From: Mobula hypostoma
Taxonomy: Eukaryota
Assembly: GCF_963921235.1 (NCBI RefSeq)
Contig: NC_086097.1
Location: 150,600,001 to 150,664,000, forward strand
DNA length: 64,000 nt
Direction of reading: 5' to 3'
This document shows, piece by piece, positions 10,470 to 53,596 of the stretch. The notes under the pieces were generated by a model. That model searched no databases and was not told the origin of the DNA. It was given only the letters and a program-made list of their open reading frames with translations. The position numbers and the translations under genes were made by a program. Positions within the stretch are counted from its first letter, which is position 1. Each line of letters opens with the position of its first letter.

Positions 10470-13400
10470 CTAACAGTGACACTTCATTCTGTATTCTCAT
10501 CTTGTTTGTCCCTACCATCATGGACTTCATCAGCAAACGTGTCGAGGACTGCGTACCAAAAGGGAAAACCCAGGTACTTTCAAGCCAGAAACCGTGACCA
10601 AACTGGGAGATCCACTTTTCTGAATTTGAGGTCTGCAGCATTCAAATCAGGTGATCTGACCTTCATAAGAAATCAATATATGACCTCTGTAAAGCCATCG
10701 GAGATGCTCTTTCAACATTTTTATTAGTTTCTCCATAGAAGAATACAGAGTACAAGAAAGTATATATAAATGTCGAAAAAAAAAACTGCCAATTACATTA
10801 TATCTATTCATAAAAACAATCTCATTACCCCGTATTCATGTAGGTTAGTCAAAGTTATATTGAAATATACTAATTTATTACAAAAGAAGTGTCTAACCCC
10901 TACCAAGACTGAAGCTGTTTATTACGGAGAAAAAAAGGTAAAATACCTTCTCGTATAACAAAAATTAATAATAGCCAACATCTAAATTTAAACAACGAAT
11001 TGAGGGTTTTGAAAGTTTTGAAAATAATTCAGAAAGGGTCCCCACAATGTTTGAAAGTCTTGACGAGATGGGAAATTGAACAACAAATCTTCTCTAAATC
11101 TAAGCATGACATAACATCGCATAACCATTGAGCATGAGTAGGAGGAGAAACATCTTTCCATTTAAACAAAAGCGCCCTCCTAGGTATAAGAGAGCTAAAG
11201 GCCAAAATATGTAAATCAGATGTCTTTAACTTGATATCTCATCCTGCAACAATACCGAATACGGCCATCAGAGGATTAGGCTTAAAATTGACTTTGAAAA
11301 GTAAAGAAAAAGTTTGAAAAACTTCCTTCCAATATTTTTCAAGACATGGACAAGTCCAAGACATATGAATTAATGAAGCTTCTCTATTATTGCATCTGTC
11401 ACAGTAGGGAGATATATCTGAATAAAAATGAGATAGCTTATCTTTAGTCATATGGACTTTATGTACCACCTTAAATTGTATGAAGGAATGGCGAGCACAT
11501 AGCGATGAAGTGTTAACCAGTTTAAAAATTTAATTCCAAGTTTCCTCAGATATTGATGTCTGTAAATCTTGTTCCCAGAGATTCGTAATTTTGTGTAAAG
11601 GAACATTCGTCTCCAGTAACATACCATAAATATTAGATATTGAACCATTATAAAAAGGTGTCAAATTAAAAATTACGTCTAGTAAGTTCTTATCTGAGCT
11701 TATAGGAAATGTGCATAATTGAGATCTTAGAAAGTCTCTGATTTGTAGATGTCTAAAAAAGAGAGTTTTGGGTAAGCTATATTTAGCTGACAATTGCTCA
11801 AATGAAAAAAGATTTCCTCCAACAAACAGATCCCAAAAATATTTAATACCCAACCAGTCCCATTCTTTAAAGACTAAATCAGTCATGGAGGGTTTAAAAA
11901 AAATTAGAATAAATGGGACTAGAAAGGGAAAATCTCAATAAACCAAAATGTTTTCTAAATTGTATTCAGATCCTCAGAGTATGTTTAAGTATTAAATTAT
12001 CAGTTAGTTTACTCACAAATAAAGGAAGTGAGCATCCAAGAAGAGAAATAATAGAAAATTTATTAACAGAATTAGCTTCTAAAGAAACCCATACTGGATG
12101 GTCTACACAATTAATATAATATAGCCAAAACGTAATATATTGTACATTAACTGCCCAGTAATAAAACCTAAAATTAGGTAAGGCTAAACTTCCAGACTTT
12201 TTAGGATTTTGAAGATGAACTTCATTTAAACAAGGACATTTATTTTTCCATATATAGGATAAAATAGATTCAAGAGAGTCATAAAAGGATTTAGGAATAA
12301 AAACAGGTAAAGGTTGAAAAAGATATATAAGTTTAGGTAGAATATTCATTTTAATAGAATTAATTCATCCAATCAACAATATTGAAAGAGGTGACCAATT
12401 TAATAATATCTTTTTTAAATGGTTCAATAAAGTAAGAAAGTTTTCTTTAAACAAGTGTTTGTAATTCTTAGTGATTGTTACACCCAAATAAGTAAATTGA
12501 TTCCTTACAATTTTAAAAGGGCGATTAGTATTAATTGATAATAAATTATTTAAAGGAAATAATTCACTGTTATGTAGGTTTAATTTATATTCCGAAAACT
12601 GGCTAAAATGGGAGAGTAAAGAAAGTACACAAGGTAACGAGGTCTCAACATTAGAAATAAAAAGCAATATATCATCAGTATAAAGCGAGATTTTGTGTGT
12701 GATACCTCTCCTTAAAATACCACAGATATCATTAGATTCTCGAAAAGCAATGGCAAGGGGTTCTAAAGCGAAATCAAAAAGCAAAGGACTCAACGGACAG
12801 CCTTGTCTAGTTCTGCAATGAAGTTTAAATGGTTTGGAATTTTGAGAATTAGTAAGAACCCGAGCAGAAGAAGATAAATAAAGTAATTTAATCCATTGAA
12901 TAAAATCTGGTCCAAAATTAAATTTTTCTAAGGTTTTAAATAAATAATTCCATTGAACCCGATCGAAGGCCTTCTCAGCATCTAAGGATATCACACATTC
13001 TGATATCTCCTGAGAAGGAGAGAAAGTAACATTTAATACACGGCGTATATTAAAATGGGAATGTCAGTTTTTAATAAGTCCAGTCTGATCATCAGAAATA
13101 ATAGAAGGTAAAATATTTTCAATCCTACGAGCCAGAACTTCAGAAAGAATTTTAGTATCTGCATTAAGTAATGAAATTGGCCTATATGAAGAGCAGTCAG
13201 TTGGATCCTTGTTCTTTTTTAGGATAAGCGAAATAGAAGCTTCATAAGAAGATTGAGACAAACTACCCAATTAGAAAGAATCCAAAAAGACTAAGTGTAA
13301 TTGCGATATAATTAATGAAGAAAAAGCCTTATAAAATTCTCCAGAAAATTCATCTAGACCTGGAGCCTTCCCTGAGTGTAATGAATGTATAGCCTCAGCG

Positions 13401-16400
13401 ATTTCCTCATAAGAAATGGGTTGATCCATCTGCTTGCAATTATCTGCAGGAAGTGCAGGGATATTTAATTGATCTAGAAAATTATTCATTACAATATTAT
13501 CTTTAGGGAAATCAGAACTATAAAGTTTAGAATAGAATTCTCTAAAGGTATCATTTATTTCAGAGTAATCAGTTGTCCTATCACCATTAGTTTTGCAAAT
13601 TTCTTTAATTTGTCGTTTAACTATATACGTTTTTACAGTAATTGGTTGGCCAATACTTAGCCTGATTTATCTCCGTGAATGCAAAATTGAGTTTTATCTT
13701 TAAGAAGTTGAGTTTCAATTGGATATGTTGACAGAAGATCATATTTAGTTTTAGCTTCAACATGTCTTTTATATAAAACAGGATCTGCAGCTATTGTATA
13801 TATTTGATCTAATTGTTTTAATTGATTGGCTAATTCAATTCTTTCTTTATTAGCTTTATCCTTAACACTCGCAGTATAAGAAATAATTTGTCCTCTAATA
13901 TAGGCCTTGAAAGCATCCCATACAATGAGATTAGAAGTCTCTTCCTTTTTATTCTCTTCAAAATACAAAATAATATGCTTCTCTAGAAATTTTTAAAATT
14001 CCTTATCAGTTAACAAAGTTGTATTAAAACGCCAAAATCTATTGGTTTGAAGAAGACCAGGGAGTTTTAAAGTTAAAAATATAAGAGCATGATCTGAAAC
14101 AGCAATCTCTTTATATTCACAGGATCGAACTGATGAAATCATTTGACTATCGATAAAAAAAAATCAATCCTGGAAAACGGAAAAAAGCATTCAAAGAAAC
14201 CTGGCTCATCTACATTTGGGCTGTACACATTGGCAAAAACAATTAATTTATTATCTAGTTTTCTTGAAACTGTAACAAAACATCCATTAGTATCAGGCAC
14301 TACTTTATGTTGGACAAAGGAAAGTGTATTATCTATGAGAATCGAAACTCCTCTAGATTTGGCCTGAAAAGAAGAGTGAAAACAAAGTCCATTCCAACGG
14401 CTAAAAAAACATAGATTATCACATTTGTGTATGTGAGTTTCTTGTAATTAAAAATAATAGGGACCTTAATTTCTTAATATAAGCAAAAATTTTATTACAC
14501 TCAACAGGGTGATTTAACCCAGTTAAAACTGAGTAAATTAATAGTTTGGTCCATTTTTAATATTATTTAATGGAAGGGTTAAAATGTAAGTTAAAAACCA
14601 AGCCATGAACCTTGAGAAATGGTAACCAAGCAACAAGTTGGCTAAAAATTTGAAAACAGCTTCTGGGAAGAAAACCCATAACCCCGCCCCTCCCCAAAGA
14701 AAGAAAACCGACCAATAGAATGTCGGCATCTACAAGCTACAGACAACCCCCCAAAAAACCTGGTGATCGCTCCAATTAGTTTCAAGGTTATTTATGTTCC
14801 AGCCTAGACTAAACAATACCCAAGCAAGAGATTCAATTCCCGTATATCAAAAATACAGTATTAAAAAATAGGAAAGGAAATTAGTTACAAAGGGTTACCA
14901 AAAGTAAAAGATACAATTATTCATACAGATAGACATTGAATATTAATCTTATATCTTCATGGAAAAACAGACTAAGCAAATTTAAAATAATCTTTGTGTT
15001 TCAGCATTCAAACAAAACCATTCGAAGGATCCATCTTTAATGAGTTTCTCAGTCAAACTGGGTAGACAAGGGATGGGTTAAAACCCTTGTTAAAAGAAAT
15101 TCCAACAGAGCTTGTTTAAACTTAGCACATTACTGCATAACCTCAAGTGAATAATCTTTGAGAATCTTAATATTCCACCCTATAACCAATCACGTCCCTT
15201 CGACGGGACTTGCGAATTAAAAGTATCTCATTTAATCTTGTGTCTTCATGTAAGGATAAACTAAACAGTTAGCCTTCGGATTTAACCTTCGCATTTTAAA
15301 AACTTTTGTGCTTGAACAGTCCAGCGGAACCATTCGAAAGAACCCTTTTAAAGTGTGATTCTGAGTCAGGCTGGATAGCGAAGGGAAGGCTTGAAACCCA
15401 TATTAAGAAGCTCGGACATAACTTCTTTGAACTTAACACGTTCCTGCATAACCTCAGGCGAATAATCTTCAACAATTCTAATCTTGCAACCATTATAGTC
15501 AATCATGCCTCTTCGACGAGATTCACGAATTAAGTCTTTCTTTGTTTTAAATTCCTGAAAACAGATTATTACTGATCCTGGTCTCTGAGCGTTAGGTGGT
15601 CTAAACGCAGGAGATCTGTGAACTCGATCGATCATAGGCACAGATGTCAAAATCTCCGGAAATAATTCTTGCAAAAAACTCCATAGAATGGTTACCTTTG
15701 ATTAATTCTTCGAGACACAGAACCCGTAGGTTGTTCTTTCTACCTCTATTTTCTAGGTCGATAATCTTCTGTCTTAACTTTTCGTTGGACTTCGATTGCT
15801 TTTCACAAAGCTTCTGCAATTCATCCACTTCCATTTTCAGAGCCAACAAATTTTCCTCATTATTTTTAATACGTTTATCCTGTTCATTAAGAGTTTGTTG
15901 AATAGAATCCAATTTACCATCTATTTGTTTAAATTCAGTGTTGAATTGTTGAAACTTCTCAGAGGCTTGTCGTGTATGACTCTGCAGTAATTCCATAATA
16001 GAATCCAAAGAGGCAGGAAAATCATCCTTTTTAGTACCTCTGGCACTCCTTCCAGCCATAATGAAAGAATATCACACTTCAAAAAGAAGTTTCAAGACAG
16101 GTTGGAAATAGTAAGATAGTTAGAGGAGCAACGGCAGATTGCTGTTACTCCATCAGCTACCACCAGGAGATTTCAGCTATCAGAGATGCTAAGAGACAGT
16201 ACCAGCCCAGAATTAAGTCTCAGTCTTGCTGTTAGAAGTGGCAGAGCTTACATATTATAACTGGTTACAAAACAAAATTGGGCAGCATTGCCAGCAACAG
16301 CACATCCTTTCTTGATGAGCTTATTCACTCTATGCATGTTTTGAACAGAGGGAACAGATACGACACACCCACCTTGACAGAGTCTGGTGCACCTAAATCT

Positions 16401-22972: not shown

Positions 22973-25391
22973 TATATCCTTGTTGAGTATTTTGTAGGCA
23001 GTCTCAATGCTAATACCTAAATGCTAATACAAATAGCTTTTCTATTTCTTTCGGAAACTTTCCTTGTACTGTGATGTGGCTTGCTTGGCAGATTTGAGCA
23101 TTTTGCCGGAAGTCTCAACCTCATAGCAGTCTGTGTCAATGAATTTGTTAATTTTGCAAGACATCAGATTTGCAAGTGTTTTGTGAGACAGCTGACTTCT
23201 GAATTCTGTCTTAATGTGACACACCATGCTGAATGCCCTTTCTACATCACAATTAGAATTTGGCAGTACCAAAAGCAGCTTCATCAACTAGCAGAGCTCT
23301 TTGAATCTCAACTGCCTTGTGCTCACAGATTTTACTTTGGACAGCTTCCCCCAGAACTCATCAACTGGCAAACTTTTGTAGTTTGGCACCAGTCCTTTGA
23401 GGTTAGTTGAGACATAATCCAGGACTTCCAAGTGGAGCTGTTCTCTTGCATCTGCCTTGATCACATTTGGAAATCTCTCTGCCAAAGTCAAAATCTGGTC
23501 TGGATTCACCTAATCTTGGCTCTCTGTATTGACCACTGACAGTTTTTTCAAGATTTGGTCTCTCATTGGGAACTTCTCCAAGACTTTTTGAAAGCATCTG
23601 ACATAGAATGCTCTAGCATCTTTGAAGAACTGCTTTGTCTTGTAAGGGGGGATCTCTTGTGCTTATTCGCTTAGCAACTGCCTCCTTGCCAGGTACCCAG
23701 TAAAAAGCTTTTCATCTGGGCGGTGAATTTCAGGGTTGCTCACATCTATCTCCTGAATGTTCTGTTCTCTCAATACCTTTGGCTCAATAAATCTGCTTGC
23801 TATGTCAGGCAGGAGCTCTTCTACACTCTGATCCAACTTGAAGAGGATAGGTGCCTTGTTTTGAAAAATCAAATTGAATTTGTCAAAACATTATATGACA
23901 TCATGGAGAAAGTATGTGTATATTTTCATTTGGGGGTCTTTCAGCCTCTTCTGAATATGAGATGACTTCTGATTCTCACTCTTTGACTCAAACTATGAAA
24001 TAAAGGCTGGCCATTGGTGGAGCAGATGGTCCAAACATTTTCCTAAAGAAAGCCAGCATGTAGGACAATGCTTTTGTACTCTTTGCTGGACAACATTGCA
24101 GAACTCTTGAGACTGTTTTAAGTCTTCTCTTTGCAACTTTTCTCAGAGTAGTAGTAGATGTCAATGAGCAGTTGTTCAGGTGACATTGAGAGCTCCTTAG
24201 CAGCAGTTTTGGCACAAATATTGACCAGGTGACTTAGACAGCCAACGCTGTAAATATGAGGGGCCTGTGCTTTCACTCTTGATAAGACAGAGTTGTTTTT
24301 GCCAATCATCACATTGCAGTTGTCACTGCTAAATCCTACACGGTTAGACCATTCAAGGCCTTTGTCATGCACGGATGATGCAATGCAGTTGAATATGTTT
24401 TCAGCTTTGGCATCATTGCACACTGGCATGTCTACAAATCCAACTGTTACCTTATCCTGTGTTTCATTCTAGTACCTGGCTAAAATGGTACATTTCTTCT
24501 CACACATGATATCATTGTTTTCGTCAACCAAAATACTGTATGGCCTTTTTTCTGTCCGGATGAACTTGTACAGATCCTCTGAACATTCAGGTTCCAGCGT
24601 CATGTTCACAATTGCTGCTGTCTTGGTTGACGAGCAGGCATAGTTTTTTGCTATTTCTGTACTTATATTATATTATATTTTCAATAGACAATAGATGCAG
24701 GAGTAGGCCATTCAGCCCTTCAAGCCAGCACAACCATTCACTGTGATCATGGCTAATCATCCACAATCAGTACCCCATTTCTGCCTTCTCCCCATATCCC
24801 TTGACTCCGCTATCTTTATCATGAGTCGTTTTTTATTCTATTACATCTTTAAGCATGTCTACAGGGAGGTTGGCCTCATCACGTAGGACGTCAATAGAGT
24901 AGCTCCTTAGCAGCTAGCCAACTAGTTTAAATAACATTACCTATGCTAATGAACGAATGACACCTGTTAAGCTCACCTCAACATGCCTTTTACAGTCATT
25001 TGGGCAATAGAAAAGTCACTGTTGCAAACAGTACAGTAAGCAACACTGTCGATATTTTTGACCCCTGTTAGGCAGGGGTATACTTTAGCGTAGTCTGAGG
25101 TGAAGTGAGTTTTTTTTTGAAACACTCTGCCATGGCGGTGCAGGACTAAAACTGAACTGATGGCGAGGCAGAGGTCGACTGTAAAGTCCGCCCACAGAGA
25201 AAACTGATAGGTCTACTTAGCACAAAGAGAGACCAATCAGGATGATCGCTCTCGCTCCCACTCCCACTCTCGCTCTTTCTCTCTCTCAAAAAAATCTATT
25301 TCTGGGATATTGTATATAATTTACGGGTGTCAGGGAGCTGCCATCAATATGCGGGAGACTCCCGGAACTTCCGGGACGGGTGGGATGTCTG
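22795..25391 (-). mobile_element. hAT transposon with decayed transposase and 6-bp TSD
   Basis: Imperfect TIRs CATGCATCCCATCC / GGGTGGGATGTCTG, TSD AGAAAG on both sides. Transposase pieces include GFSSDNCNVMIG...GCLSHLVNI (CxxH) and LVLPNSNCDVERAFS (hAT C-terminal). Confidence 0.88.
22943..22968. repeat. (CA)n microsatellite
   Basis: Run of CA dinucleotides. Confidence 0.95.
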
Positions 25392-26472: not shown

Positions 26473-26769
26473 CTATAATAAAACAGAGACATAACAGGGT
26501 TACACCAACTTTGTTAAAAGTTTCCATACCATTATGAATGATTCAATCAAATACCTATAGTTAAAATTATAACAGGCAAACCCTGTGTTACTAGGGTAGA
26601 GGAAGGGGTGTAGGGTTAAATATGCTAAAAATGGACTACACCACAATTTTCCATAACACAAAGTCATACCATCTGCACACATTATAAAAAAACCTAATTT
26701 TTCCCCACATATATTCTGAGACTGAATTGCATCATCTGAAATTTTTTGGGTGATGATTTGTGAATTCAG

Positions 26770-27340
26770 CAAGCCTTTATGAGACACTAGTCGGGCCACA
26801 CTTGGAGTATTGTCAACAGTTTTGGGCCCAATATCTCAGAAAGGATGTGTTGTCATTGGAGAGAGTCCAGAGGAGGTTCATGAGGATGATTCCGGGAATG
26901 AAGGGGTTAACATATGAGAAGTGTTTGGCAGCTTTGGGCCTGTACTCACTGGAATTTAGAAGAATGCATGGTATCTCATTGAAACTACCAAATTTAAAAG
27001 GACCAGAAAGGGAGGATGTGGAGAGGATGTTTCCTATGGTGGGAGTATCCAGAACTAGATGGCACAGCCTCAAAATTGAGGGGCGATCCTTTAGAAGAGA
27101 GGCAAGGAGGTATTTTTTTAGCCAGAGAGCAGTAAATTCTGGAATGCTCTGCCACAGACTGCAGTGGAAGCCAAGTCCATGGGTATATTTAAGGCAGAAG
27201 TTGATTGTTTCCTGATTGGTCAGGGATATGACGAGAAGGCAGGTGTATGGGGTTGAGTGGGATACAAGATTAGCCGTGATGGAATGGTGGAACAGACTCG
27301 ACAGGCTAAATGGCCTAATCCTGCTCTTATGTCTTATGAT
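26770..27340 (+). mobile_element. CR1 LINE 3' fragment
   Basis: LVGPHLEYCQQFW...LERVQRRF motif and CR1 tail. Confidence 0.85.
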
Positions 27341-27459
27341 CTGTATCAATGATTTTAACTGGGTCGTGTAACTCTTTAGGTCCTTGGATTTTAACTTTCA
27401 AGCTTATTTGCTTGCATATTGCTTCACACCCAATAATTCCTATTAACTGAATCTCATAT

Positions 27460-29160
27460 TCTGTGGTTGTAAATAGACCCTTTGGCCCAGCTGTCCTGAG
27501 CATACTAAGATTTCCATCTAAGCTGGTCCCATGCTCCCACGTTTGGCCCATATTCCTCTAAACCTTTCCTATTCATGTACAAGTACCAGTTAAAAGTTGT
27601 CATTCCATAGACTAACCACCCTCTGTGCGAAAGTTTCCCTTCAGGTTCCTATTATATCTCTCACCTTAAACTTCTGTCCTCTAGTTCTTGATTCCCCCAT
27701 CAATCTTGAAAGAACGATATAACTTACAAAGAGGTCATTCAGACCATCAAGTTTGAAGATATATTGCAAGGAAGAAAGTTTCAGAATAGACACTTTGGGC
27801 ATGGTTGATTACAATACATCTTGATTTTACTCTTTAACCCACTCGTTGAGTAACAAAATTGAGCTAATCCTATTTGCCTGTATTTGGCCCTTATCCATCC
27901 AAACCTTTCCAATCCATGTAGCTGTTCAAATTCCTTTTAACTGCTACTTTCTCTGACAGCTCTTTGTAAATACCCACCACCCTCTGTATGAAAGAAAGGC
28001 CTCTTTGCCCGCTTTAAATCCTTCCCACTCTCGGACCTATGTCATCTAGTTTTAAACTCCCCTATCCTGGGAAAACAACTATAACCATTTATCTAGGGCC
28101 ATTGTGATTTTATAAATCTTTATAAGGTCATTCCTCAGCCTCCAAAGCCCAAGCCTATCCAGTCTTTCCTTAAAACTCACGCCCTTTGTTCTGCACGCTT
28201 TGGCAATCAGGCCACCCACAAGTCCAAGTGTAGCCTTTCCAACATCCTGTACAGTTGTAACCTAGTGTCTCAACCGCTGCACTCGATGCCCTGAGTAACA
28301 AAGACCAGCATGTCAAATGCCTTCACCACCACCCTCTCTAACAGGGAATGACTTGTACCTCTTCGTCTCTCTGTTGTACCATTCCCAAGAACCCTGCCAT
28401 TTATTGTGTAAGTCCAGCACTGCTTTAACTTAACAATATGCAAGCCTTTGCAGTTGTCAGAGTTCAAACTCCATCTGTCATTTCTTATCCCACTTACCCA
28501 GTTTTTTTCTAGGTTCCACTGTAATCTTAAAATATCATCTGCACTGTCCACTAATAACACCAATTTTAGTGTTGACCACAAACATGTCAATGTTTGGATC
28601 TTTCAAAAGGCTAAAATCTATGTAGACAACATCTACCATCCTGTCTCAAACAATTTCTTGCTGCCCTCTTCAAAAAACTCAAATTCACGCCTTTCCAAAT
28701 GCAGATAGATCTTGTCTCCAGTAACTTTCTCATAACTGATGTTAGGCTCACTGGCCTGCTGTTCTATGGCTTGTCATTACAGCCTTTTTAAAAGCACAAT
28801 GCTAGCTACCTTCTAGTCGTCCACTACCTAACCCATGCCTAACTCTGATATAAATATCTTAGCCAGGGCCCCAGCAATTTCTTCCCTAGTTTCCCTCAAT
28901 TTCCTAGGATAGACTTGGTCAGGCCCTGGGTTCTTCTCCATCTTTTTGCTCTCCTAACACTGCCACCACCTCCTGTTTTGTCATCTGGATACAATTCAGG
29001 GCATCTCTATTCTTTTCCCTGAATTCCATTGCTTCCATGGCCTTCTCGATGCAAATACAGACAAGAAATGTTCACTTAAAACTATGGCTATCTACTGTGG
29101 CTCCACACATAGATATCCACATCAACCATTAAGAGGCCCTTAATCACTCCTTAGCTAATT
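27460..29160 (-). mobile_element. Degraded CR1 LINE fragments
   Basis: RT and C-terminal remnants plus two CR1-type 3' ends. Confidence 0.65.
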
Positions 29161-29635
29161 GGACCGCCAACAATGACAAATTCATCAGCCATGCTTTCCT
29201 TTACTCCTGACGTGCCCCAGGACAGTAGCATGGATGGCTAGAGGCCAAAGAAGATTACCTGTCGTTGGGTTAGAGGATTAAGTATGTGTGTTGTTGGGAG
29301 GAAGGTACAGGGCTTGTTTTGCTCGTTTTGTGTTCTGCATTCTATCATGCATTGTAGGCATGAGATATTTTCTCTATGTATCCCGACACTTGTAGGCTGC
29401 CCCCACGCACCCTCTGGTGTGTTGATTATCACAAACAGTGCATTTGCCTGTGTGTTTTGATGTACAAATGGTTAATCAATTTGAATCTTAAGTATTGATG
29501 TAGATATTTATATGTGGTACACAGTAGATGGGCGAGTTTTAAATTTAACACCCACCGCATGCTAACCATAGATTATTAGTTAAAATGAAACACACAAGCC
29601 TAGTTTTCATTTGAATCCTCAGGCTTTCTGAGAAT

Positions 29636-29641
29636 TTTATT
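29636..29641 (-). terminator. Polyadenylation signal for the protamine-like gene
   Basis: AATAAA about 130 nt after the stop codon, followed on the minus strand by a GT/T-rich tract (cttgtgtgtttcatttt). Confidence 0.55.
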
Positions 29642-29769
29642 ATTTCATGTACATTGGTGTGGTACAGTAAAAGTGATGATGGGCTTTTTTTTAGGCCGGT
29701 AGATGTTCACAACACAGTCTATTTCATGTTCATTTCTTGTTCTAGGCCTTTTACTATTAGGGCATCTTT

Positions 29770-29913
29770 TCACCGCCTGCAACGTGCACGTCTTTTCTTA
29801 ACTCTTTGTTTTTTACATTTTCCTTTGGCATTCTTACGGTGATGAATTGGACTTGAGAAATTCCGATGAGCCTTGGCTAGCTTTGGCCCTCGCCGCTTCC
29901 CACTGCAACACAT
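29770..29913 (-). CDS. Candidate protamine / sperm nuclear basic protein, 47 aa, nested in ZFAT intron 2
   Basis: MCCSGKRRGPKLAKAHRNFSSPIHHRKNAKGKCKKQRVKKRRARCRR*: 10 K, 10 R, 4 C, 3 H and no D/E. G at -3 of the ATG, upstream TATA and CRE-like sites, downstream AATAAA. Confidence 0.7.
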   Translation of the reverse strand: MCCSGKRRGPKLAKAHRNFSSPIHHRKNAKGKCKKQRVKKRRARCRR

Positions 29914-29967
29914 CGCTATGTTCAAGCTTGAGGTTCACAGATTGTGTATCTTTATGTCTGTTGCAGC

Positions 29968-30027
29968 TTTATATAACATACACAAAGCTGGCTGCTCATT
30001 GTGACATCAGCTGAACTCATTACATCA
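29968..30027 (-). promoter_or_regulatory. TATA box and CRE-like elements upstream of the protamine-like ORF
   Basis: Minus-strand TATATAAA at 29975-29968, TGATGTCA at 30009-30002 (one mismatch to CRE TGACGTCA) and TGATGTAA at 30027-30020. Confidence 0.65.
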
Positions 30028-30454
30028 CATATTTTTGGGTCCAAATTTGGTATAATCTTCGACAAGCATTGTGACATTAGTGCAAGGTTACTGCCTTTTT
30101 GGGTTAAATAGTCAACAATGCACCCTCTACAGTCTCACTAAGTGGAGGGACTTCTACTAAAGGAAAAGTAAATGTTGGCAGAATAAGAACAGACAACCAC
30201 ATGGGATAATTGCTTACCAGCAAAGTCCTGAACCATATCAATTTGCAGAAATTTGAAGTTTCATCCAGTGCATCACTAATTGCATCTACTTTGTCTCCTT
30301 AATGACAATAGAGTAACTTATTCAAAAATGCTCCTAAACCTTCCTTGGTGTCACATAGATGTAGACTCGTGCTTTCAATGCCAATTGGCCTTGGAGTGAA
30401 AGCTTCCAGTGCAGGTGATTAGTTTAAATGAAAGCCACAAGAGCTGCCTTGAGA

Positions 30455-30790
30455 TTTTGGTCTCGGCCCGAAATGCCGACTGTACTTCTTCCTAGAGATG
30501 CTGTTGGGCTGCTGCGTTCACCAGCAACTTTGATGTGTGTTGCTTGAGATTTTAGTCACTGATTCTCCTCAAATGAATTTCACACCCAGTAACACACACA
30601 AAATATTGGAGGAACTCAGTAGGCCAGGCAGTATTTACGGGAAAAAGTATAGTCGACGTTTCGGGCTGAAACCCATCGGCAGGATGGGAACAGCGACTGT
30701 ATTTTTTCCATAGATGCTGCCTGGCCTGCTGAGTTCCTCCAGCATTTTGTGTGTGTTGCTCGGATTTCCAGCATCTGCAGATTTTCTCTT
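30455..30790. mobile_element. Cluster of Penelope-like terminal repeat fragments (another copy at 21872-21962)
   Basis: Recurrent ggtctcggcccgaaa...gactg...agatgctgcctggcctgctg...ccagca motif in both orientations. Confidence 0.6.
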
Positions 30791-31584
30791 GTTTGTTCAT
30801 GTCCAGTAATTGTTTTACAGAAAAAAACAAACCCTTTGATTATGAAAATAAAATCTGATCTTTGCCTCAGCTCCACTTTTTAAACACCTTTACAGAGGAA
30901 AGATTTCTCTATGGCCATGAATATTCAATTATTCAGCCTCCACAGTCCGTATGAGCGGAGTATTCCTAAGATTCACAACCATCAGAAAAATAGGGCTTAC
31001 ATTGGTCTTAAGTGAGCAACTCTTAAAGCTATGTGCACACCAGTTTTAGGTTTCACACAAGAAAAAACAGCATACAGAATCTCAAAAGCTTCCATGGAAT
31101 CTTCTGATATTCTTCAAAACTGCATGAGGTTATGCAAAACCTGCTTAAATTTTTCCTTTCAGTTAACTCCTTCATCACACAAAACAACTGTTGATTTTTT
31201 TCTTTGAAAATTACCTTCCTAAAAAAAGATCAAAACTGCACATCATAGTCCATACGTGCTCTTAACATTGACTTGTACAGCTATAACAAGACTCCCCTGC
31301 TTTAATACAAAAACAAAGTTTTTTTGAGTGTACTCAAAAAGTCAGGCAGTGTCAGCGAGAGGAGACATAGAATCAACATTTATATTCAAGCATTGCTCAT
31401 CAAAACTGGAAAACTGAGACAAGCATGTTTCTGGCTGTGAGATCTTTCCTGTTGCTTGCAGGATCTCCTGGCTTTAGGATCGGGCTTTCATTTCTAGCTT
31501 GCCTACTTAAGATCGGTACTTCATTTTTGAATAAACTGGCAGTGCTCCTGGAAAGTTCTTCAGACTTAATTGAATATTGTTTCA

Positions 31585-34500
31585 TAGAACATAGAATAGT
31601 ACAGCACATTACAGGCCCTTCGGCCCGCAATGTTGTGCCGACTCTCAATCCCTGCCTCCCATATAACCCCCCACCTTAAATTCCTCCATATACCTGTCTA
31701 GTAGTCTTTTAAACTTGACTAGTGTATCTGCCTCCACCACTGACTCAGGCAGTGTATTCCACACACCAACCACTCTCTGAGTAAAAAACCTTGCTCTAAT
31801 ATCCCCCTTGAACTTCCCACCCCTTACCTTAAAACCATGTCCTCTTCTATTGAGCAGTGGTGCCCTGGGGAAGAGGCACAGGCTATCCACTCTATCTATT
31901 CCTCTTATTATCTTGTACATCTCTATCATGTCTCCTCTCATTCTCCTTCTCTCCAAAGAGTAAAGCCCTGGCTCCCCTAATCTCTGATCATAATGCATAC
32001 TCTCTAAACCAGGCAGCATCCTGGTAAATATCCTCTGTACCCTTTCCAATGCTTCCACATCCTTCCTACAGTGAGGCGACCAGAAATGGACACAGTACTC
32101 CATGTGTGGCCTAACCAGAGTTTTATAGAGCTGCATCATTACCCCGCGACTCTTAAACTCTATCCCTCGACTTATGAAAGCTAACACCCCATAAGCTTTC
32201 TTAACTACCCTATCTACCTGTGAGGCAACTTTCAGGGATCTGTGGACATGTACCCCCAGATTCCTCTGCTCCTCCACACTACCAAGTATCCTGCCATTTA
32301 CTTTGTACTCTGCCTTGGAGTTTGTCCTTCCAAAGTGTACCACCTCACACTTCTCCGGATTAAACTCCATCTGCCACTTCTCAGCCCACTTCTGCATCCT
32401 ATCAATGTCTCTCTGCAATCTTTGACAATCCTCTACACTATCTACAACACCACCAACCTTTGTGTCGTCTGCAAACTTGCCAACCCACCCTTCTACCCCA
32501 ACATCCAGGTCGTTAATAAAAATCACAAAAAGTAGAGGTCCCAGAACAGATCCTTGTGGGACACCACTAGTCACAATCCTCCAATCTGAATGTACTCCCT
32601 CCACCACCACCCTCTGCCTTCTGCAGGCAAGCCAATTCTGAATCCACCTGGCCAAACTTCCCTGGATCCTATGCCTTCTGACTTTCTGAATAAGCATACT
32701 GTGTGGAACCTTGTCAAATGCCTTACTAAAATCCATATAGATCACAACCACTGCACTACCCTCATCTATATGCCTGGTCACCTCCTCAAAGAACTCTATC
32801 AGGCTTGTTAGACATGATCTGCCCTTCACAAAGCCATGCTGACTGTCCCTGATCAGACCATGATTCTCTAAATGCCCATAGATCCTATCTCTAAGAATCT
32901 TTTCCAACAGCTTTCCCACCACAGGCGTAAGGCTCACATGGTCTATAATTACCTGGACTATCCCTACTACCTTTTTTGAATAAGGGGACAACATTTGCCT
33001 CCCTCCAATCCTCTGGTACCATGCCCGTGGACAACGAGGACATAAAGATCCTAGCCAGAGGCTCAGCAATCTCTTCCCTCACCTCGTGGAGCAGCCTGGG
33101 GAATATTCCGTCAGGCCCCATGGAATTATCCATCCTAATGTATTTTAACAACTCCAACACCTCCTCTCCCTTAAAATCAACATGCTCCAGAACATCAACC
33201 TCACTCATATTGTCCTCACCTTCATCAAGTTCCCTCTCGTTGGTGAATACTGGTGAGAAGTATTCATTGAGGACCTCGCTCACTTCCACAGCCTCCAGGC
33301 ACATCTTCCCACCTTTATCTCTCTTTATCAGTCCTACCTTCACTCCTGTCATCCTTTTTTTCTTCACGCAATTGAAGAATGCCTTGGGGTTTTCCTTTAC
33401 CCTACTCGCCAAGGCCTTCTCATGCCCCCTTCTTGCTCTTCTCAGCCCTTTCTTAAGCTCCTTTCTTGCTTCCCTACATTCCTCAATAGACCCATCTGAT
33501 CCTTGCTTCTACATAAGGCAAACCTCATGTATGCTGCCTTCTTCCATCTGACTAGATTTTCCACCTCACTTGTCACCCATGGTTCCTTCACCCTACCAGT
33601 CTTTATCTTCCTCACCAGGACAAATTTATCCCTAACATCCTGCAAGAGATCTCTAAACATCGACCACATGTCCATAGTACATTTCCCTGCAAAAACATCA
33701 TTTCAATTCACACCCGCAAGTCCTAGCCTTATAGCCTCATAATTTGCCCTTCCCCAATTAAAAATTTTCCTGTCCTCTCTGTTTCTATCCTTTTCCATGA
33801 TAATGCAAAAGTCCAGGGAGCGGTGGTCACTGTCCCCCAGATGCTCACCCACTGAGAGATCTGTGACCTGACCCGGTTCATTACCAAGTACTAGATCTAG
33901 TATGGCATTCCCCCTGGTCGGCCTGTCCACATACTGTGACAGGAATCCATCCTGGACGCACTTAACAAACTCTGCCCCATCTAAACCCTTGGAACTAATC
34001 GGGTGCCTATCAATATTAGGGAAGTTAAAGTCACCCATGACAACAACCCTGTTATTTTTGCACCTTTCCAAAATCTGCCTCCCAGTCTGCTCCTCTGTAT
34101 CTCTGCTGCTACCAGGAGGCCTATAGAATACCTCCAATAGAGTAACTGCTTCCTTCCTGTTCCTGACTTCCACCCATACTGACTCAAAAGAGGATCCTGC
34201 TACATCACTCACCCTTTCTGTAGCTGTAATAGTATCCCTGACCAGTAATGCCACCCCTCCTCCCCTCCACCCCCCCCCATCCCTTTTAAAGCACTGAAAT
34301 CCGGGAATATTGAGAATCCATTCCTGCCCTGGTGCCAGCCAAGTCTCTGTAATGGCCACTACATCATAATTCCATGTATGTATCCAAGCTCTCAGTTCAT
34401 CACCTTTGTTCCTGATGCTTCTTGCATTGAGGTACACACACTTCAGCCCTTCTACCTTACTACCTTTACACTGTTTATTCTGCTTCTCTTTCCTCAAAGC

Positions 34501-35920
34501 CTCTCTGTATGTTAGATCTGGCTTTACTGCATGCACTTCTTTCACTGGTCTATCGCTCTGGGTCCCATCCCCCTTGCAAATTAGTTTAAACCCTCCCAAA
34601 CCATGCTAGCAAACCTACCTGCAAGGATATTGCTCCCCCTCGAGTTCAGGTGCAACCCACCCAATCTGTACGGGTCCCACCTTCCCCAAAAGAGATCCCA
34701 ATAATCCAAAAACCCTGTTCCCTGCACCAACTCCTCAGCCACGCATTCAACTGCCATCTCCTCCAATTCTTACCATCACTGTCACGTAGCACTGGCAGCA
34801 ATCCTGAAAACGCCACCCTTGAGGTCCTGATCTTCAGCCTTCTGCCTAATTCCCGAAACTCACACTCAGGACCTCATCCCTCTTCCTGCCCATGTCGTTG
34901 GTCCCAACATGTATCATGACTTCTGGTTGCTTTCCCTCTCGTACCAGGATGTCGCGCACCCGGTCAGAGACATCCCAGACCCTGGCACCCGGGAGGCAAC
35001 AAACCATGCGGGTGTCCTTCTCACATCCACAAAGTTTCCTGTCTGCTCTCCTGACTATAGAGTCTCCAATGATGAAAGCTCTCCTCGTCTCCGTCCCACC
35101 CTTCTGCACCACTGGGTCAGACTCAGTGCCAGAGGCCCTGCCACCGTGGCTCACACCTGGTCGGTCGTCCCCTCCAACGGTATCTAGGACAGTAAACTTA
35201 TTATTCAGGGGAATGGCTACAGAGGTGCTCTGCACTACCTGTCTGCTCACCTTCACTTTCCCCCTCTGACTGTCACCCAACGACCTGCTTCCGACAGCCT
35301 AGGTGTGACTACCTCCCTGTACCTCTCATCTATGACTGCCTCATTCTCCCTTATGAGTCGAAGGTCATCCAGCTGCTGCTTCAGATTCCTTACATGGTCT
35401 TCCAGATCGCCCAGCCATATGCACTTCTGGCAGATGTGACTCTGCAGGAGAGGGGCGTTCCCCCAAGACTGCCACATCTCACATGACAGGCACATCACCG
35501 TCTCAGGAGACATTGTAAGGACTAACTGCGAGCGAGCTCATCCTCCGCCTCTTCTCGTCGAAGCCTTTCGAGTCAAAGCCTCAAAGCTCCACTCCTTCAC
35601 TGGCTGGCTGGCTGGCTCGCTCGCCCGCTCACGCTCTGGCCGCTTTCCACAGGCCGCTCCGCTTGAGCTACTCCTCTATTTATCTGTTTGAGCTTTTCAA
35701 ACTGCTTGGTCACCCGACCTCGATTGCCCAATCAGCTGCTTTCTGCTGAGTCTGAGCTATTCAAATCTTGATTGTCTAATCAACGGCTTTCTGCTGATAT
35801 ATTCAAATCTTGATTGACTTGATTGCACAAACTGCCAAAACTGCCAGAATCTCTCAAGTCAAAGCCTCAAAGCTCCACTCCTTCACTGGCCCACTCACTC
35901 ACTGGCCACTTTCCGCATCA
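31585..35920 (-). mobile_element. Near full-length, relatively young CR1 LINE
   Basis: ORF1 with CxxC...CxxC finger and esterase-like IIGDSIVR / HVGTND (35513-34581). ORF2 with APE (ITETW, GDFN, SDH) and RT (KFADD) over 34599-31645 with a few frameshifts and stops. 5' UTR and (ttctatg) tail present. Confidence 0.95.
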
Positions 35921-36893
35921 ATGATATTGGGCTCAAATTAAATACAGGCTCAAGAACATATGGCCAGCAGGTCACTCAAACCTGCCCCACCATTCATTAT
36001 GACCATCAATGCTGGCCTTAACAACTGTTCTGTGCCAGTTCCGATTTATCCTCTGTTCCGTGGCCTTTCAAATATTTATCTATGCATTTCTTAACAACAT
36101 AATGACCTTGCTTCCACAACCCTCCAAATGTCCTGGCACAGTTGTACTTCAGAGTTCTTAGCACAAAAATAAAGGCTGGCACTTCAGTATAGACTGAGAC
36201 CCATGTAATTCCGTAGAAGTATGAAAAAGATTTCATTGCAATATTTCAAAAAGTTATCTCCTGGACCACAATTAACTCTGAAAACAAATGGATTCTGTAA
36301 AGTGCATTCTGACATCTTCAAAAAAATGTGACCGTTTTTAAAAAAATCCATCTCCTTTTCTGTCACAGTTAAGGAGTCCATCAACTTTCAACCCTTGTGA
36401 TTTCTTGGCTACTATGATATTTTGTATTAAGCAGTTAACTACTTAGCTTTCTGGTTCCTACCAATTTCCGTTGCATAGAAAACTCGCAGGTTCAGAAATT
36501 CTGTTGTCTTGAAATGCCCCATTTCCCATGAAGCACTCACCAGTCTTTGGATCCAATGTAATTTCCTGAAAGTAAGGATTACCTCTAAAATTCCACTCGA
36601 TGAACAACTGAGCAACTTGACTGGTTACTGTAACACTGCAATTGTTTGGTTTTGTTCGGATCAGTTTGTACCACTAACATTGACACAGTATCAATTAATT
36701 TATTGATATGTATAAGGGTTTCATGTAGCTGACAAAACTATGGTATCTTTGAATCCATTGATTCTTTAATCCAAACGTAGGACTCCAAACTCAGTAAGTT
36801 AATTGATAGATCAGATTGAAGATCTGAAAATAATTAATTGAGGATAAATACATAACGTGAATGAAGAAAGGTGCGATTAATTTGGGATCCTAC

Positions 36894-38814: not shown

Positions 38815-40166
38815 TCAATGAAATCTATCGAATATTAAATAGAGTGGGTGTGGAAAGGATGTCTCCGGTCATGGGGTTGTCTAGGATCAGAGGGCAGAGT
38901 CTCAGAATAGATGGGGACATCCCTTTAGAAAAGGGATGTAGAATTTCTTTGGCCAGAGGGTGGATCAGGGCACAAAGGTTAAGGGGAGAAGTCAGGAGAG
39001 TGGGGTTGAAAGATAATAGGACGGAGCAGACTCGCTGGGCCGAACAACCAAATTCTGCACCTATGTCATATGGTCTAAGACAGGTTAGAAGTTGAATTGA
39101 ATGTGCATAAATACATCAATGCCAGTGTGTATTTACAAAGTAAAGATCATTACAGAAAGTGGTTAAAGTGTGTTGCACTGATGGAGGTAATAGAGGGAAT
39201 GGGGCAATAAATAGAATGTTTGAGCAGACTAACTGCCCAGAGGGCATAACTTTGAAGAAAGCATTAAGTTTTTGTTTTAATATCCCTAGATTTTTTTTTG
39301 CGTTAATAGCTGATTAACGTTTTAAATCCCCCACCTATTCGTTGATCTAATTTCTAATCGCCCCCTCCTCTAACAAAGGCGTAACATTAACTGTGGTTAC
39401 TACTATTTTCACTAATTTCGAAATGCTCCACCATTAAGTTATGCCTTCAGCTATCAAGTTCTGAGACGCTTCTCTGAACTTTTGCACTTTAATACTCTGT
39501 TCCGTTAGCCTCCCTTTCCTAATAGACACCTGCATGAAAATCCCTAACTTGTGGCTCAGACTCAAATTTTGACCTGATTTTACCTTTCCTGGTGTGTTTC
39601 CCCGTACTTTTAGACCTGAGTTGAAGATGCAAGTTATTGATTTCAGATGGGATGATTTTTATTTGGACTTTAATCGAAAAAGAAAATTAACTACAAGTTC
39701 TAGAAGCTTTGAGAAGTACCAACAAAGCAACCACTTTCAATTATGAACTCTTCTCACGAAACGAGAACTATCTAACTATCTGTGTTTTATTTCACACCGA
39801 CTCTTTCGATCAACGCTCCCGACCCCCCGCAGATAGGAGCTACAACTACTGACATGTCCCTTTGAGTGACAGGGTAAGGGCGGGTCCGAACGTGGCCTCC
39901 GCCAATCCTCGTTGGCAATCGGTCGTCAATCAAACTATGGCCGACAGCGGACAGGCGTTCATTGACTTTTCTTTCTCAATATATTCGTTAGAACTTTTGC
40001 TTTTCAAAATATATCACCAGTCAATACAAACAATTAATTAAAACTTTGTAACCATGGTCCGGAGGTTTTTTTTTGTTTTGAACTCCCTTCGGCTGGTAGC
40101 TCGCACTACTTTTACCTTTCAAAAGAAAGAGAAGAAACAGAAAATGACTCGGTCGCCAATACTCAC

Positions 40167-40185
40167 CTGGAGTCCGATGATCCAT
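40167..40185 (-). CDS. ZFAT: ZFAT coding exon 1 (MDHRTP + 1 nt, 19 bp)
   Basis: ATG GAT CAT CGG ACT CCA G followed by a canonical GTGAGT donor. It joins exon 2 in frame, lies just below the CpG-rich promoter, and matches the short METRAA-E first exon I recall for mammalian ZFAT. Confidence 0.85.
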
Positions 40186-40289
40186 GAGTTTAGATATAAA
40201 TATGTGATATTTTAATTCTAATTACATTTAGACGTTACTCGAAGAGGTGTCATTGTATTATATTTTTTAAAAATATTTTTTCACTTTCT

Positions 40290-40495
40290 GACGAATCTGC
40301 GGAAGTAACATGGCGGCTCCCCTTACCCGGAGTGCATCACGCGTACCAAGGAGGTTGACGATTGGGCGGGAAGGTGCAAGAAGTGACGCTAGACAGGCAG
40401 AGGGCGCTGGTCCTCCTACCGCTTGTCGGTCTCTAGTGACGTGAGCGGAGCTGAGAATTTGGCGAGTGCTCCTAGAGAGAAGACACGTGGCTTTG
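40290..40495 (-). promoter_or_regulatory. ZFAT CpG-rich core promoter
   Basis: Local CpG enrichment with ETS/GABP CGGAAGT (40300), YY1-like ACATGGCGGC (40308-40317), ATTGG/CCAAT next to GGGCGG (about 40361-40370), TGACGT (about 40437) and CACGTG (about 40484). Confidence 0.75.
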
Positions 40496-41352
40496 GGTTT
40501 GGAGAACACTTTAAGCATTTTCGTTCTTGGTAACTGCAGGGGAATATAAAATTGAGGTTTTTTAAAAAAAAATCTGCATTATTTGTGGAGTTAGTTCTGT
40601 TAGAGGATGATGAAATCCCTCACGTGGTGCCTCAACTGTATTTCGTTCTGTGGTGCAATCTTGGGAGGGCAGAACTTCACCAGTTCTTCTCACTGAGCAT
40701 AACAAATCGCCAGCCCTTTCCCCAACATCGTACAGTAACTACTGGTCACCACTGCTATGAGTACCAACCTTCTTCCCTCCAATCTCCCACCTACTTGTCC
40801 TCTACCATCCATAAACACCACCTCTGAATTTCACCAGTTCTCCATTCACTCTTACTACTTTTACAATAGCAGCCACACACCCCTACATTACTCGCCCACC
40901 TGCTCTCCTAACCTCTAGTCTTCCATCTCCACTCTCTCCGTCTTTGGCCCTGTCGCAATCCAACATAAATCAAAAGTGACCCTCTTACCAATTCTAGCTG
41001 CTGCCTTTCTGGTCGAACCTTTCCAATCCTAAAGTGGTGCTTTCTTGGCTATGCCAGAAACCCCATCTTCATTCTGAAAGTATTTTGTCCTGCCCATTCT
41101 CACATCACCCCCATCGCATGCTGATTAGGATGCAATTTTTGACTAGATCATAGTTCCTAGGTGACCTACAAAGAAAATGATGTTTAAATATTTCATCAGT
41201 ATTCCAATTTCTCTATAAATGCTAACAGTTTTCATACAACATGGTGGAATAGTGGGCAGTGAAAAAAATATCTGATGTTACACCAGAATATAGATCAAGT
41301 GGACAAGAGAATGGGAAATAAGATTTATCTTGGACAGGTGAGATTGATGCAT

Positions 41353-52963: not shown

Positions 52964-53395
52964 TGCCGTGCCTTTACTTAAATTTCTACAATCAGTGAGA
53001 AGCCTGCCGTGCCTTTACTTAAATTTCTACAATCAGTCTGCTGAATATTTGTCTTGATAGGTCTTTGCTTGTTTCATGATCAGCATACCATTAACCAGCA
53101 TAAATTCACTCCAACGCTGATGAATCCACTCTTTCAATAGATGATGGAGATCTTCATATTTTTCCCTTATGTAGTGTTTTTTTAAAAATATTTTTCTATT
53201 TAATAGTCCATTATACATATGAGGTCACTTCTCAGCACTGTCTGTGTTGTGTAGAGACCTATGCTTTGCCTGGGAACTTTCCCAGCACCACGTGGAATTT
53301 CCCATTTGTGACATCATGTCAGTGCTCAGAAAAACTTTGGATTTCAGAGGTTTTCACATTTTGGAATTTCAACCAAGGAGTGCTCAACCTGTATG
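52964..53395 (-). mobile_element. Tigger-like 5' fragment
   Basis: LKEWIHQRWSEFMLVNGMLIMKQAK is CENP-B HTH-like; ends ...ctcaacCTG|TA near 53391. Confidence 0.6.
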
Positions 53396-53596
53396 TTTAA
53401 GTGACTGAATAAATAAGGGAAAAGTGTATCGTACAAGCTTTTCATTAAATAGGTAAACATATCACATCACTAATTGTCTTCAGTTATTATTTAACTCTTC
53501 AACAATTTAATTAGTGAAAATTCACAATATTGCCTGTTCTTTTCAAGAGCTCCTGAAATATTTATTTGATTTACCACAAAAGAAGTTTCAAAGAAA

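What the first reader, a model, noticed from the sequence alone, without database searches (positions are those of the whole stretch)
29636..30027. Hidden intronless protamine-like gene nested in ZFAT intron 2
Seen: a 47-codon minus-strand ORF (29913-29770), below the ORF-track cutoff, encoding MCCSGKRRGPKLAKAHRNFSSPIHHRKNAKGKCKKQRVKKRRARCRR. It has 20/47 K+R, 4 Cys, 3 His and no acidic residues. It sits in an apparently non-repetitive island with TATATAAA about 55 nt upstream of the ATG, TGATGTCA 26 nt further up, a second TGATGTAA, and AATAAA plus a GT-rich tract downstream. Established: chondrichthyan keratinous protamines (dogfish scylliorhinines Z1, Z2, S4) are short Arg/Lys/Cys-rich peptides, and vertebrate protamine and transition-protein promoters typically pair a TATA box with a CRE bound by CREM. 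Inference: this is a complete, probably unannotated, spermatid-specific chromatin protein gene inside a housekeeping transcription factor gene.
Basis: partly seen in the sequence, partly recalled or inferred. Interest (0 to 1): 0.9.

Follow-up and report, generated by a model that had tools for sequence, protein, structure and literature searches.

The report
Protamine-like gene inside ray ZFAT intron
A tiny single-copy gene for a strongly positively charged 47-residue peptide appears to lie hidden inside an intron of the ZFAT gene of a manta/devil ray; it probably helps pack DNA in sperm, but nobody has yet shown that it is expressed.

Summary
A 47-codon ORF (29913-29770, minus strand; 20 K+R, 4 Cys, no D/E) lies in ZFAT intron 2 of a Mobula ray, on the same strand as ZFAT, in a single-copy island of about 960 nt. 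It has a TATA box, a CRE-like site and SOX-type motifs upstream, and AATAAA plus a GT-rich tract downstream. It is the most basic of 1,075 short ORFs in 193 kb, and only 31 of those have both TATA and a poly(A) signal. The locus is present at about 90-93% identity in four other organisms. None of 9 listed indels hits the ORF. K+R stays at 20-21 while eight positions change. Six of 7 CpG-containing Arg codons show no listed change, and the TATA-CRE core has 0 shared substitutions in 60 nt. Each test is weak (p 0.02-0.05), only 40 of 134 differences were visible, and the ORF overall is no more conserved than its flanks. No protein homologue was found and expression is untested. Arg is only 21%, so it is not a canonical protamine. 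Best reading (0.6): an unannotated spermatid basic nuclear protein gene, protamine-like or transition-protein-like.

The parts
29770..29913 (-). 47-codon intronless ORF plus TGA stop; basic Lys/Arg/Cys peptide, 5.6 kDa, pI about 12. Variable N-terminal half (codons 2-25), steadier basic C-terminal half (codons 26-47)
   Evidence: First ATG after the TATA box. No indel listed in four other organisms. Shared nonsynonymous changes: 9 of 55 sites vs 1 of 52
29968..29975 (-). TATA box (TATATAAA); start of transcription near 29945 is inferred
   Evidence: no shared substitution listed
30002..30009 (-). CRE-like octamer TGATGTCA; keeps G5, C7 and A8
   Evidence: critical positions from PMC2853129 passages; no shared substitution listed
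30020..30027 (-). second octamer TGATGTAA; departs from the CRE at positions 4 and 7, so a weak CREM candidate
29997..30007 (-). 11-nt element ATGTCACAATG, copy 1: overlaps the CRE-like site and holds a SOX-type ACAAT
   Evidence: ACAAT as the SOX30 motif in testis ChIP-seq, PMC8136829 passages
30067..30077 (-). copy 2 of the same 11-nt element; these are the only two TGTCACAATG in the window
   Evidence: conservation not visible (rows beyond 30060 not shown)
30115..30120 (+). third ACAATG, opposite strand
   Evidence: 3 of the window's 39 ACAATG lie in 29930-30130
29636..29641 (-). poly(A) signal AATAAA, about 130 nt after the stop; likely cleavage at CA 29613-29612 (inferred)
   Evidence: no shared substitution listed in 29618-29656
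29581..29597 (-). GT/T-rich downstream element
29498..30458 (.). single-copy island holding the unit, bounded by repeats
26473..36893 (-). ZFAT intron 2 (host intron, about 10.4 kb)

Best explanation
An independent, intronless RNA-polymerase-II gene nested in ZFAT intron 2 on the same strand. It encodes a small sperm nuclear basic protein of mixed Lys/Arg/Cys type, protamine-like or transition-protein-like. SHOWN: the anatomy, single copy, position in the intron, and presence without a listed frameshift in four other organisms. INFERRED: in round spermatids CREM-type and SOX30-type factors on the roughly 100-nt promoter fire the TATA box and give an unspliced mRNA of about 330 nt (29945 to about 29612). 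The peptide enters the nucleus through its basic clusters, binds DNA electrostatically through the C-terminal Lys/Arg run during histone replacement, and is locked by Cys disulfides or Cys/His-bound zinc. In somatic cells the unit is silent and spliced out with the ZFAT intron.
For: (1) Joint rarity: top K+R of 1,075 ORFs, and TATA plus poly(A) in only 31 of 1,075. The ATG is the first after the TATA box. (2) All 7 CpGs of the ORF sit at positions 1-2 of CGN Arg codons; it is the only one of 165 ORFs with at least 5 CpGs that has all in that phase. This is partly circular, since the ORF was picked for Arg. (3) One of these 7 CpGs differs in the relatives vs 4 of 5 flanking CpGs, p=0.045. (4) 0 shared substitutions in the 60 nt from TATA to the second octamer vs 24 in 361 nt of other non-coding DNA, p=0.022. 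(5) 0 of 9 listed indels fall in the ORF. (6) Listed changes touch eight residues but add no D/E. K+R stays 20-21 and Cys 4-5; all four relatives have Arg at 5, 6 and 31 and Cys at 19. Constant charge with shifting positions is described for protamines (PMC8812575, passages). (7) CRE-like sites in short haploid-gene promoters, including protamine 1 (PMC2853129), and ACAAT as the SOX30 motif (PMC8136829). (8) Cysteine-containing sperm basic proteins in vertebrates are cited to dogfish work (PMC11607694, passages).
Against: Expression is unshown. No homologue was found in any protein search. The ORF overall is not more conserved than its flanks: 14 of 144 vs 24 of 361, p=0.26, with 10 nonsynonymous changes in 107 sites vs 4 synonymous in 31, a ratio near 0.7. 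The absence of indels has a chance of about 0.2 (my arithmetic). A substitution-free run of 79 nt somewhere in the region has p=0.10 when the place is not fixed beforehand. A 1-nt insertion at 29983 lies inside the promoter core in three runs. 94 of 134 difference rows were hidden, so private stop codons are not excluded; about 0.11 are expected for X9 and 0.18 for X13. Arg is 21%, far below the 50-70% quoted for protamine 1. The composite promoter pattern is not enriched in the genome (17 matches vs 31 for the reversed control), and no other locus printed has a long basic ORF behind it.
Confidence: 0.6

Rival explanations
1. A conserved intronic regulatory element (an enhancer of ZFAT, or the promoter of a non-coding RNA) that happens to sit next to a purine-rich stretch reading as a basic ORF; no protein is made.
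For: The clearest constraint is on the promoter core, not the ORF. The ORF changes at least as fast as the flanks, with dN/dS near 0.7. There is no homologue. The C-terminal half is short of synonymous changes too (1 of 14 sites shared by X9 and X12).
Against: It does not explain the in-phase and retained CGN codons, the constant charge with no acidic gains, or the coincidence of the most basic ORF with a first-ATG position and a poly(A) signal.
Confidence: 0.2
2. A real microprotein gene with another job: a somatic or nucleolar nucleic-acid-binding peptide, or a cationic antimicrobial peptide.
For: Basic, acid-free composition fits these too. High Arg alone is a poor identifier of protamines (PMC12216123, passages). 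CRE and SOX motifs are not testis-exclusive (own knowledge).
Against: There is no hydrophobic signal peptide, no match to ribosomal or antimicrobial Pfam families and no parent gene elsewhere in the genome. Fast N-terminal evolution suits a reproductive protein.
Confidence: 0.08
3. A former sperm-protein gene now decaying on the Mobula line.
For: Five residues shared by all four relatives (Arg5, Arg6, Met14, Cys19, Arg31) differ in the window's species, three of them away from Arg and one away from Cys, against two synonymous changes shared by all four.
Against: Frame, ATG, TATA, CRE-like site and AATAAA are all intact here, and K+R is unchanged at 20.
Confidence: 0.07
4. An alternative exon of ZFAT: either a terminal exon spliced from exon 2 to the AG at 29917-29916, or a first exon spliced from the GT at 29837 or 29816 to exon 3. 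Both would be in frame.
For: Same strand as ZFAT; phases are compatible; an intronic AATAAA is available.
Against: The AG has no pyrimidine tract (0.5) and is GG in all four relatives (29917). The donors match only 6 of 9 consensus positions. None of the 66 ZFAT proteins printed carries this sequence, and no longer protein shares words with it.
Confidence: 0.05

Closest known systems
Dogfish (Scyliorhinus canicula) cysteine-containing protamines scylliorhinine Z1, Z2, S4 and spermatid proteins S1/S2 (names and properties recalled; no call returned them)
   Same: Chondrichthyan; short (recalled as about 30-50 aa for Z1, Z2, S4), basic, with a mix of Lys, Arg and Cys.
   Different: No sequence match was detected in the general searches, though I could not confirm that these proteins are in the libraries. 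This peptide has a neutral/His-containing middle segment and only 21% Arg. I found no genomic location for them in print.
Vertebrate P-type protamines (Pfam Protamine_P1, PF00260)
   Same: About 50 aa, no acidic residues, Cys present, TATA plus CRE-like promoter, constant charge with variable positions.
   Different: No Pfam match; the PF00260 scan of the genome does not list this locus. Arg is 21% vs 50-70%, with no run of more than two Arg. Nested in a host intron.
Mammalian transition protein TNP1 (Pfam TP1, PF02079)
   Same: Similar length, balanced Lys/Arg, and CRE-driven spermatid expression (recalled).
   Different: The PF02079 scan of the genome does not list this locus; TNP1 has an intron (recalled); four Cys here.
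Host/nested gene pairs co-expressed in testis (PMC11694760, passages)
   Same: The nested gene lies in a 5' intron of a broadly expressed host; same orientation is about as common as opposite; 163 pairs show testis-specific co-expression.
   Different: Those data are for human and mouse. Nesting is therefore ordinary; the listings showed no report of such a gene in ZFAT.

Membership tests
Sperm nuclear basic proteins (functional class) | Expressed post-meiotically in spermatids | not testable with these tools
   No run on record as RNA held the stretch; the laid runs are contigs
Sperm nuclear basic proteins (functional class) | Protein present in spermatid or sperm chromatin, bound to DNA | not testable with these tools
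   Needs mass spectrometry and binding assays
Sperm nuclear basic proteins (functional class) | Small, strongly basic, free of acidic residues | tested here: met
   47 aa, 43% K+R, no D/E, pI about 12; kept in the listed changes of four relatives
Canonical P-type protamine | Arginine about 50-70% (figure for protamine 1, PMC8812575), in runs | tested here: not met
   10 of 47 Arg (21%); 12-13 in relatives; longest run is two
Canonical P-type protamine | Match to Protamine_P1 profile PF00260 | tested here: not met
   low power for such sequences, as no locus in the genome passed the cut-off
Transition protein TNP1 | Match to TP1 profile PF02079 | tested here: not met
Scylliorhinine Z1/Z2/S4-type cysteine protamines | Sequence homology or orthology | not testable with these tools
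   Sequences not obtainable; 0 papers for 'scylliorhinine' and 'keratinous protamine'
Scylliorhinine Z1/Z2/S4-type cysteine protamines | Several Cys in a short Lys/Arg-rich chain (definition recalled) | tested here: met
   4 Cys here, 4-5 in relatives
Haploid germ-cell promoter | CRE able to bind CREM close to the start site | tested here: inconclusive
   TGATGTCA keeps G5, C7, A8, but T at position 4 was not tested in the passages read; no shared substitution listed
Independent protein-coding gene | Frame kept and purifying selection across species | tested here: inconclusive
   No listed indel or stop; 94 of 134 rows hidden; overall dN/dS near 0.7; constraint only in the C-terminal half and at CpGs
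Repeat or retrocopy | Other copies or a parent gene in the genome | tested here: not met
   Only self-matches; other protein hits have E of 3.8 or more

The most novel reading that the evidence does not exclude
A protamine-like sperm chromatin protein that arose inside ZFAT intron 2, either de novo or by insertion with loss of any traceable parent. It would be unrelated in sequence to histone-H1-derived protamines and have a fast-evolving, possibly cleaved N-terminal half on a steadier basic C-terminal core. It would be an independent origin of a cysteine-containing sperm-packing protein whose birth can be dated by aligning one intron across rays, skates and sharks.
Probability: 0.2. Interest if true: 0.75.

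Novelty: new member of a known kind. Interest (0 to 1): 0.5.

Why it matters
Sperm nuclear basic protein genes are largely missed by genome annotation (said of insects in PMC12216123, passages). In cartilaginous fishes the work I could trace is protein chemistry and cytochemistry from 1976-1997, seen only as reference titles. A mapped gene with its promoter, anchored between two conserved ZFAT exons, gives a fixed address for tracing orthologues across sharks, rays and chimaeras. That makes testable whether cysteine-containing fish protamines share an origin with other vertebrate protamines or arose separately, and whether CREM/SOX30 control of spermatid genes predates bony vertebrates. If it is not expressed, it is only a conserved intronic element.

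Tried and rejected
Expression: no RNA holder listed; this is no evidence either way. Run X13 is only guessed to be RNA. Its one orthologous contig (29760-30039, depth 7) reaches about 95 nt upstream of the predicted start, and contigs cannot show starts or ends, so I used it only as sequence.

Protein searches without result: Pfam, NCBIfam (65), word-index search at near and longer lengths (11, 52), phmmer on 1.84 billion representatives (19), exact look-up (23), ESM Atlas (24), PDB (66: best E 0.42, KMT5B N-terminus, taken as chance). All have low power for a 47-aa low-complexity query.

Paralogues: protein search of the genome gave three extra hits with E 3.8-7.5. PF00260 and PF02079 gave five sub-threshold hits each. 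TATA-plus-Arg-run patterns gave three hits, none a gene of this kind. Promoter-pattern scans gave 164 and 17 matches; 30 and 12 loci were fetched, and among those printed only this locus has a long basic ORF behind the motif (L056 and L059 did not print).

Metagenome scans: 0 exact matches to a 22-nt promoter stretch; three hits to the frame are chance 8-residue matches inside bacterial proteins. Rfam: two matches far below gathering score. The predicted mRNA has no unusual fold, z -0.38. The bacterial promoter scan is not applicable. The 24-residue cassette between exons 2 and 3 of Carcharodon ZFAT isoforms has no counterpart in this intron. A sliding same-phase CpG scan returned nothing, even for this ORF, because it demanded zero off-phase CpGs; I replaced it with the ORF-based count. 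No structure or complex prediction was run: there is no alignment and the peptide is likely disordered. A larger random genomic background was not available, so the background is the window plus 42 loci that were picked by other searches and are not random. Four look-ups of earlier findings returned nothing. Three papers sought were not held (Balhorn 2007, Lewis 2004, Saperas 1997).

Full report
OBSERVATION. The ORF at 29913-29770 on the minus strand gives the stated 47 residues: K10, R10, C4, H3, no acidic residue, 5.56 kDa, pI about 12. A CA at 29613-29612 and a GT/T-rich tract at about 29597-29581 follow. The ATG is the first after the TATA box.

HOST. The frame at 26195-26542 matches ZFAT of Mobula hypostoma at 100%, followed by other chondrichthyan ZFATs; the M. 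birostris N-terminus is identical too. So this is a manta or devil ray. ZFAT residues 3-63, 64-152, 153-208 and 208-260 map to 37077-36895, 26473-26207, 21372-21205 and 6479-6321, and coding exon 1 starts at 40185. The ORF lies in intron 2 (36893-26473), on the same strand as ZFAT.

COPY NUMBER. DNA searches of the 3.48-Gb genome with 29500-30150, 30080-30460 and 29760-30040 returned only the locus itself (the tool warns that common words are skipped). Sequence below about 29498 is an old repeat (40 scored matches of 542 candidates), and repeats resume at 30459. A protein search gave three further hits with E of 3.8 or more.

CHANCE. The background was 192,825 bases: the window plus 42 loci returned by other searches, so not a random sample. 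Of 1,075 ATG ORFs of 30-120 aa, this one has the highest K+R and is the only one with at least 35% K+R and at most one acidic residue. 84 have a TATA upstream, 31 have TATA and a poly(A) signal, and 2 have those plus a CRE-like site: this one and a locus fetched with a related pattern. All seven CpGs in the ORF are the first two bases of Arg codons; of 165 ORFs with five or more CpGs only this has all in that phase. These criteria were set after seeing the locus, and the CpG result is partly circular.

OTHER SPECIES. Sequencing runs of several other organisms hold words of the stretch. I laid four of the 24 listed runs on 29440-30470. X9 and X12 span the island in one contig (73 and 82 differences). 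X17 covers the ORF in two overlapping contigs at depth under 5, so single differences there may be errors. X13 covers 29760-30039. Nine indels are listed and none lies in the ORF; by my arithmetic that has a chance of about 0.2. The table shows 40 of 134 substitution rows. From its pattern I assume it is complete for differences shared by X9 and X12 from 29496 to 30060; I left out the row at 30313. On that set: 14 in 274 nt downstream, 14 in the 144-nt ORF, 3 in 32 nt of 5' leader, 0 in the 60 nt from TATA to the second octamer, and 5 in the 30 nt above it. The promoter core is more conserved than other non-coding DNA (0 of 60 vs 24 of 361, p=0.022). But an empty run of that size anywhere has p=0.10, and three runs carry a 1-nt insertion at 29983. 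The ORF is not more conserved than its flanks (p=0.26): 10 nonsynonymous changes in 107 sites and 4 synonymous in 31. The changes are uneven: 9 of 55 nonsynonymous sites in codons 2-25 vs 1 of 52 in codons 26-47 (p=0.016, split chosen afterwards). One of 7 ORF CpGs differs vs 4 of 5 flanking ones (p=0.045). The listed residue changes are C2G, G5R, K6R, R7Q, K14M, F19C, H25W/Y/R and G31R. None adds an acidic residue, and K+R stays 20-21 with 4-5 Cys. Hidden private changes could include a stop; about 0.11 are expected for X9 and 0.18 for X13. These are several weak signs that agree, not proof.

HOMOLOGUES. None were found in Pfam, NCBIfam, the 5.8-billion-protein index (25-83 and 84-2000 aa), 1.84 billion representatives, the ESM Atlas or the PDB. 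The exact sequence is not in the 15-billion collection, although that collection holds NCBI proteins of Mobula, Hypanus, Hemitrygon, Pristis and skates. The ORF is therefore probably unannotated. Protamine_P1 and TP1 profiles do not pick up the locus, nor any locus over cut-off in this genome.

MECHANISM. The best fit is a self-contained spermatid gene. CRE or CRE-like sites are frequent in haploid-expressed genes, and -150 to -37 suffices for protamine 1. In EMSA, positions 5, 7 and 8 of the octamer were critical for CREM while position 4 tolerated G or C (PMC2853129, passages). TGATGTCA keeps 5, 7 and 8; TGATGTAA does not. ACAAT is the top motif at SOX30 sites in mouse testis (PMC8136829, passages). 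Protamines keep their charge while Arg positions shift (PMC8812575, passages). I infer a 330-nt unspliced mRNA, and a peptide that binds DNA through its C-terminal basic run and may be cross-linked through Cys. None of these steps is shown. The composite promoter motif is not enriched genome-wide (17 vs 31 control), so it is not a recognisable family signature.

RIVALS. A regulatory element beside a chance ORF (0.2) explains the promoter conservation but not the codon-phase and charge patterns. An alternative ZFAT exon (0.05) is formally in frame, but the acceptor AG is GG in all four relatives, the donors are weak and none of 66 ZFAT proteins shows it. A non-testis microprotein (0.08) and decay on the Mobula line (0.07) remain open.

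COMPARISON AND NOVELTY. It most likely works like a protamine or transition protein, but it fails membership of canonical P-type protamines (21% Arg, no profile match). Kinship to the dogfish scylliorhinines is recalled and untested. Ten full-text searches listed no paper on a protamine-like gene in ZFAT or on batoid protamine genes. The library lacks most subscription journals, including the original dogfish papers, which I saw only as reference titles. I read no supplements. For PMC13756071, PMC13251019, PMC11083954, PMC2110730, PMC3750513 and PMC2112839 I saw term-search output only, and nothing in it bore on this locus. Nesting in a 5' intron, in either orientation, is common (PMC11694760, passages).

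VERDICT. A real and unusual sequence feature, probably a gene (about 0.75) and probably a spermatid basic nuclear protein (about 0.6). New member of a known kind; interest 0.5. Testis RNA and an alignment of the intron across assemblies would settle it.

Noticed in passing
window 29919-29914 (-), run X17: The listed differences give an in-frame ATG two codons upstream of the start in X17, so the start may have shifted between lineages (inferred; low-depth contig, hidden rows possible).
   Followed up: partly
window 31585-35537 (-): A near-complete CR1-like LINE (ORF1-like, endonuclease and reverse-transcriptase frames, broken) lies in ZFAT intron 2 about 1.5 kb upstream of the unit; 31585-33804 is 93% identical to an inverted copy at 53596-55798.
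   Followed up: no
window 49100-56800 (+): Broken Ty3/Gypsy-like LTR retrotransposon frames (gag-, protease-, RT-, RNase H- and integrase-like by eye), interrupted by the LINE copy at 53.6-55.8 kb.
   Followed up: no
window 23042-24468 (-) and 11239-16071 (-): Fragments resembling a hAT-type transposase in ZFAT intron 3 and a degraded L1-like element in intron 4, by eye from the ORF list.
   Followed up: no
window 30585-30763: An imperfect inverted repeat of about 180 nt (76%), probably two SINE-like copies head to head, 500 nt upstream of the promoter.
   Followed up: no
window 39501-40500: CpG-rich stretch (observed/expected 0.93-1.06) around ZFAT coding exon 1 at 40185, the likely host promoter.
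   Followed up: partly
P0031, P0067, P0007-P0009: ZFAT isoforms that skip exon 2 are annotated in Mobula hypostoma and Pristiophorus; Carcharodon isoforms carry a 24-residue cassette between exons 2 and 3 with no detectable counterpart here.
   Followed up: partly
L011, L014, L015, L018, L020, L021, L026 and others: A dispersed repeat family carries TGTCACAATG followed by a TATA-like site and makes up roughly half of the listed pattern matches in the genome; no basic ORF follows it.
   Followed up: partly
window 30061-30458: The 400 nt upstream of the promoter are single-copy and alignable in X9, X12 and X17, but their differences were mostly hidden, so further conserved elements there are untested.
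   Followed up: no
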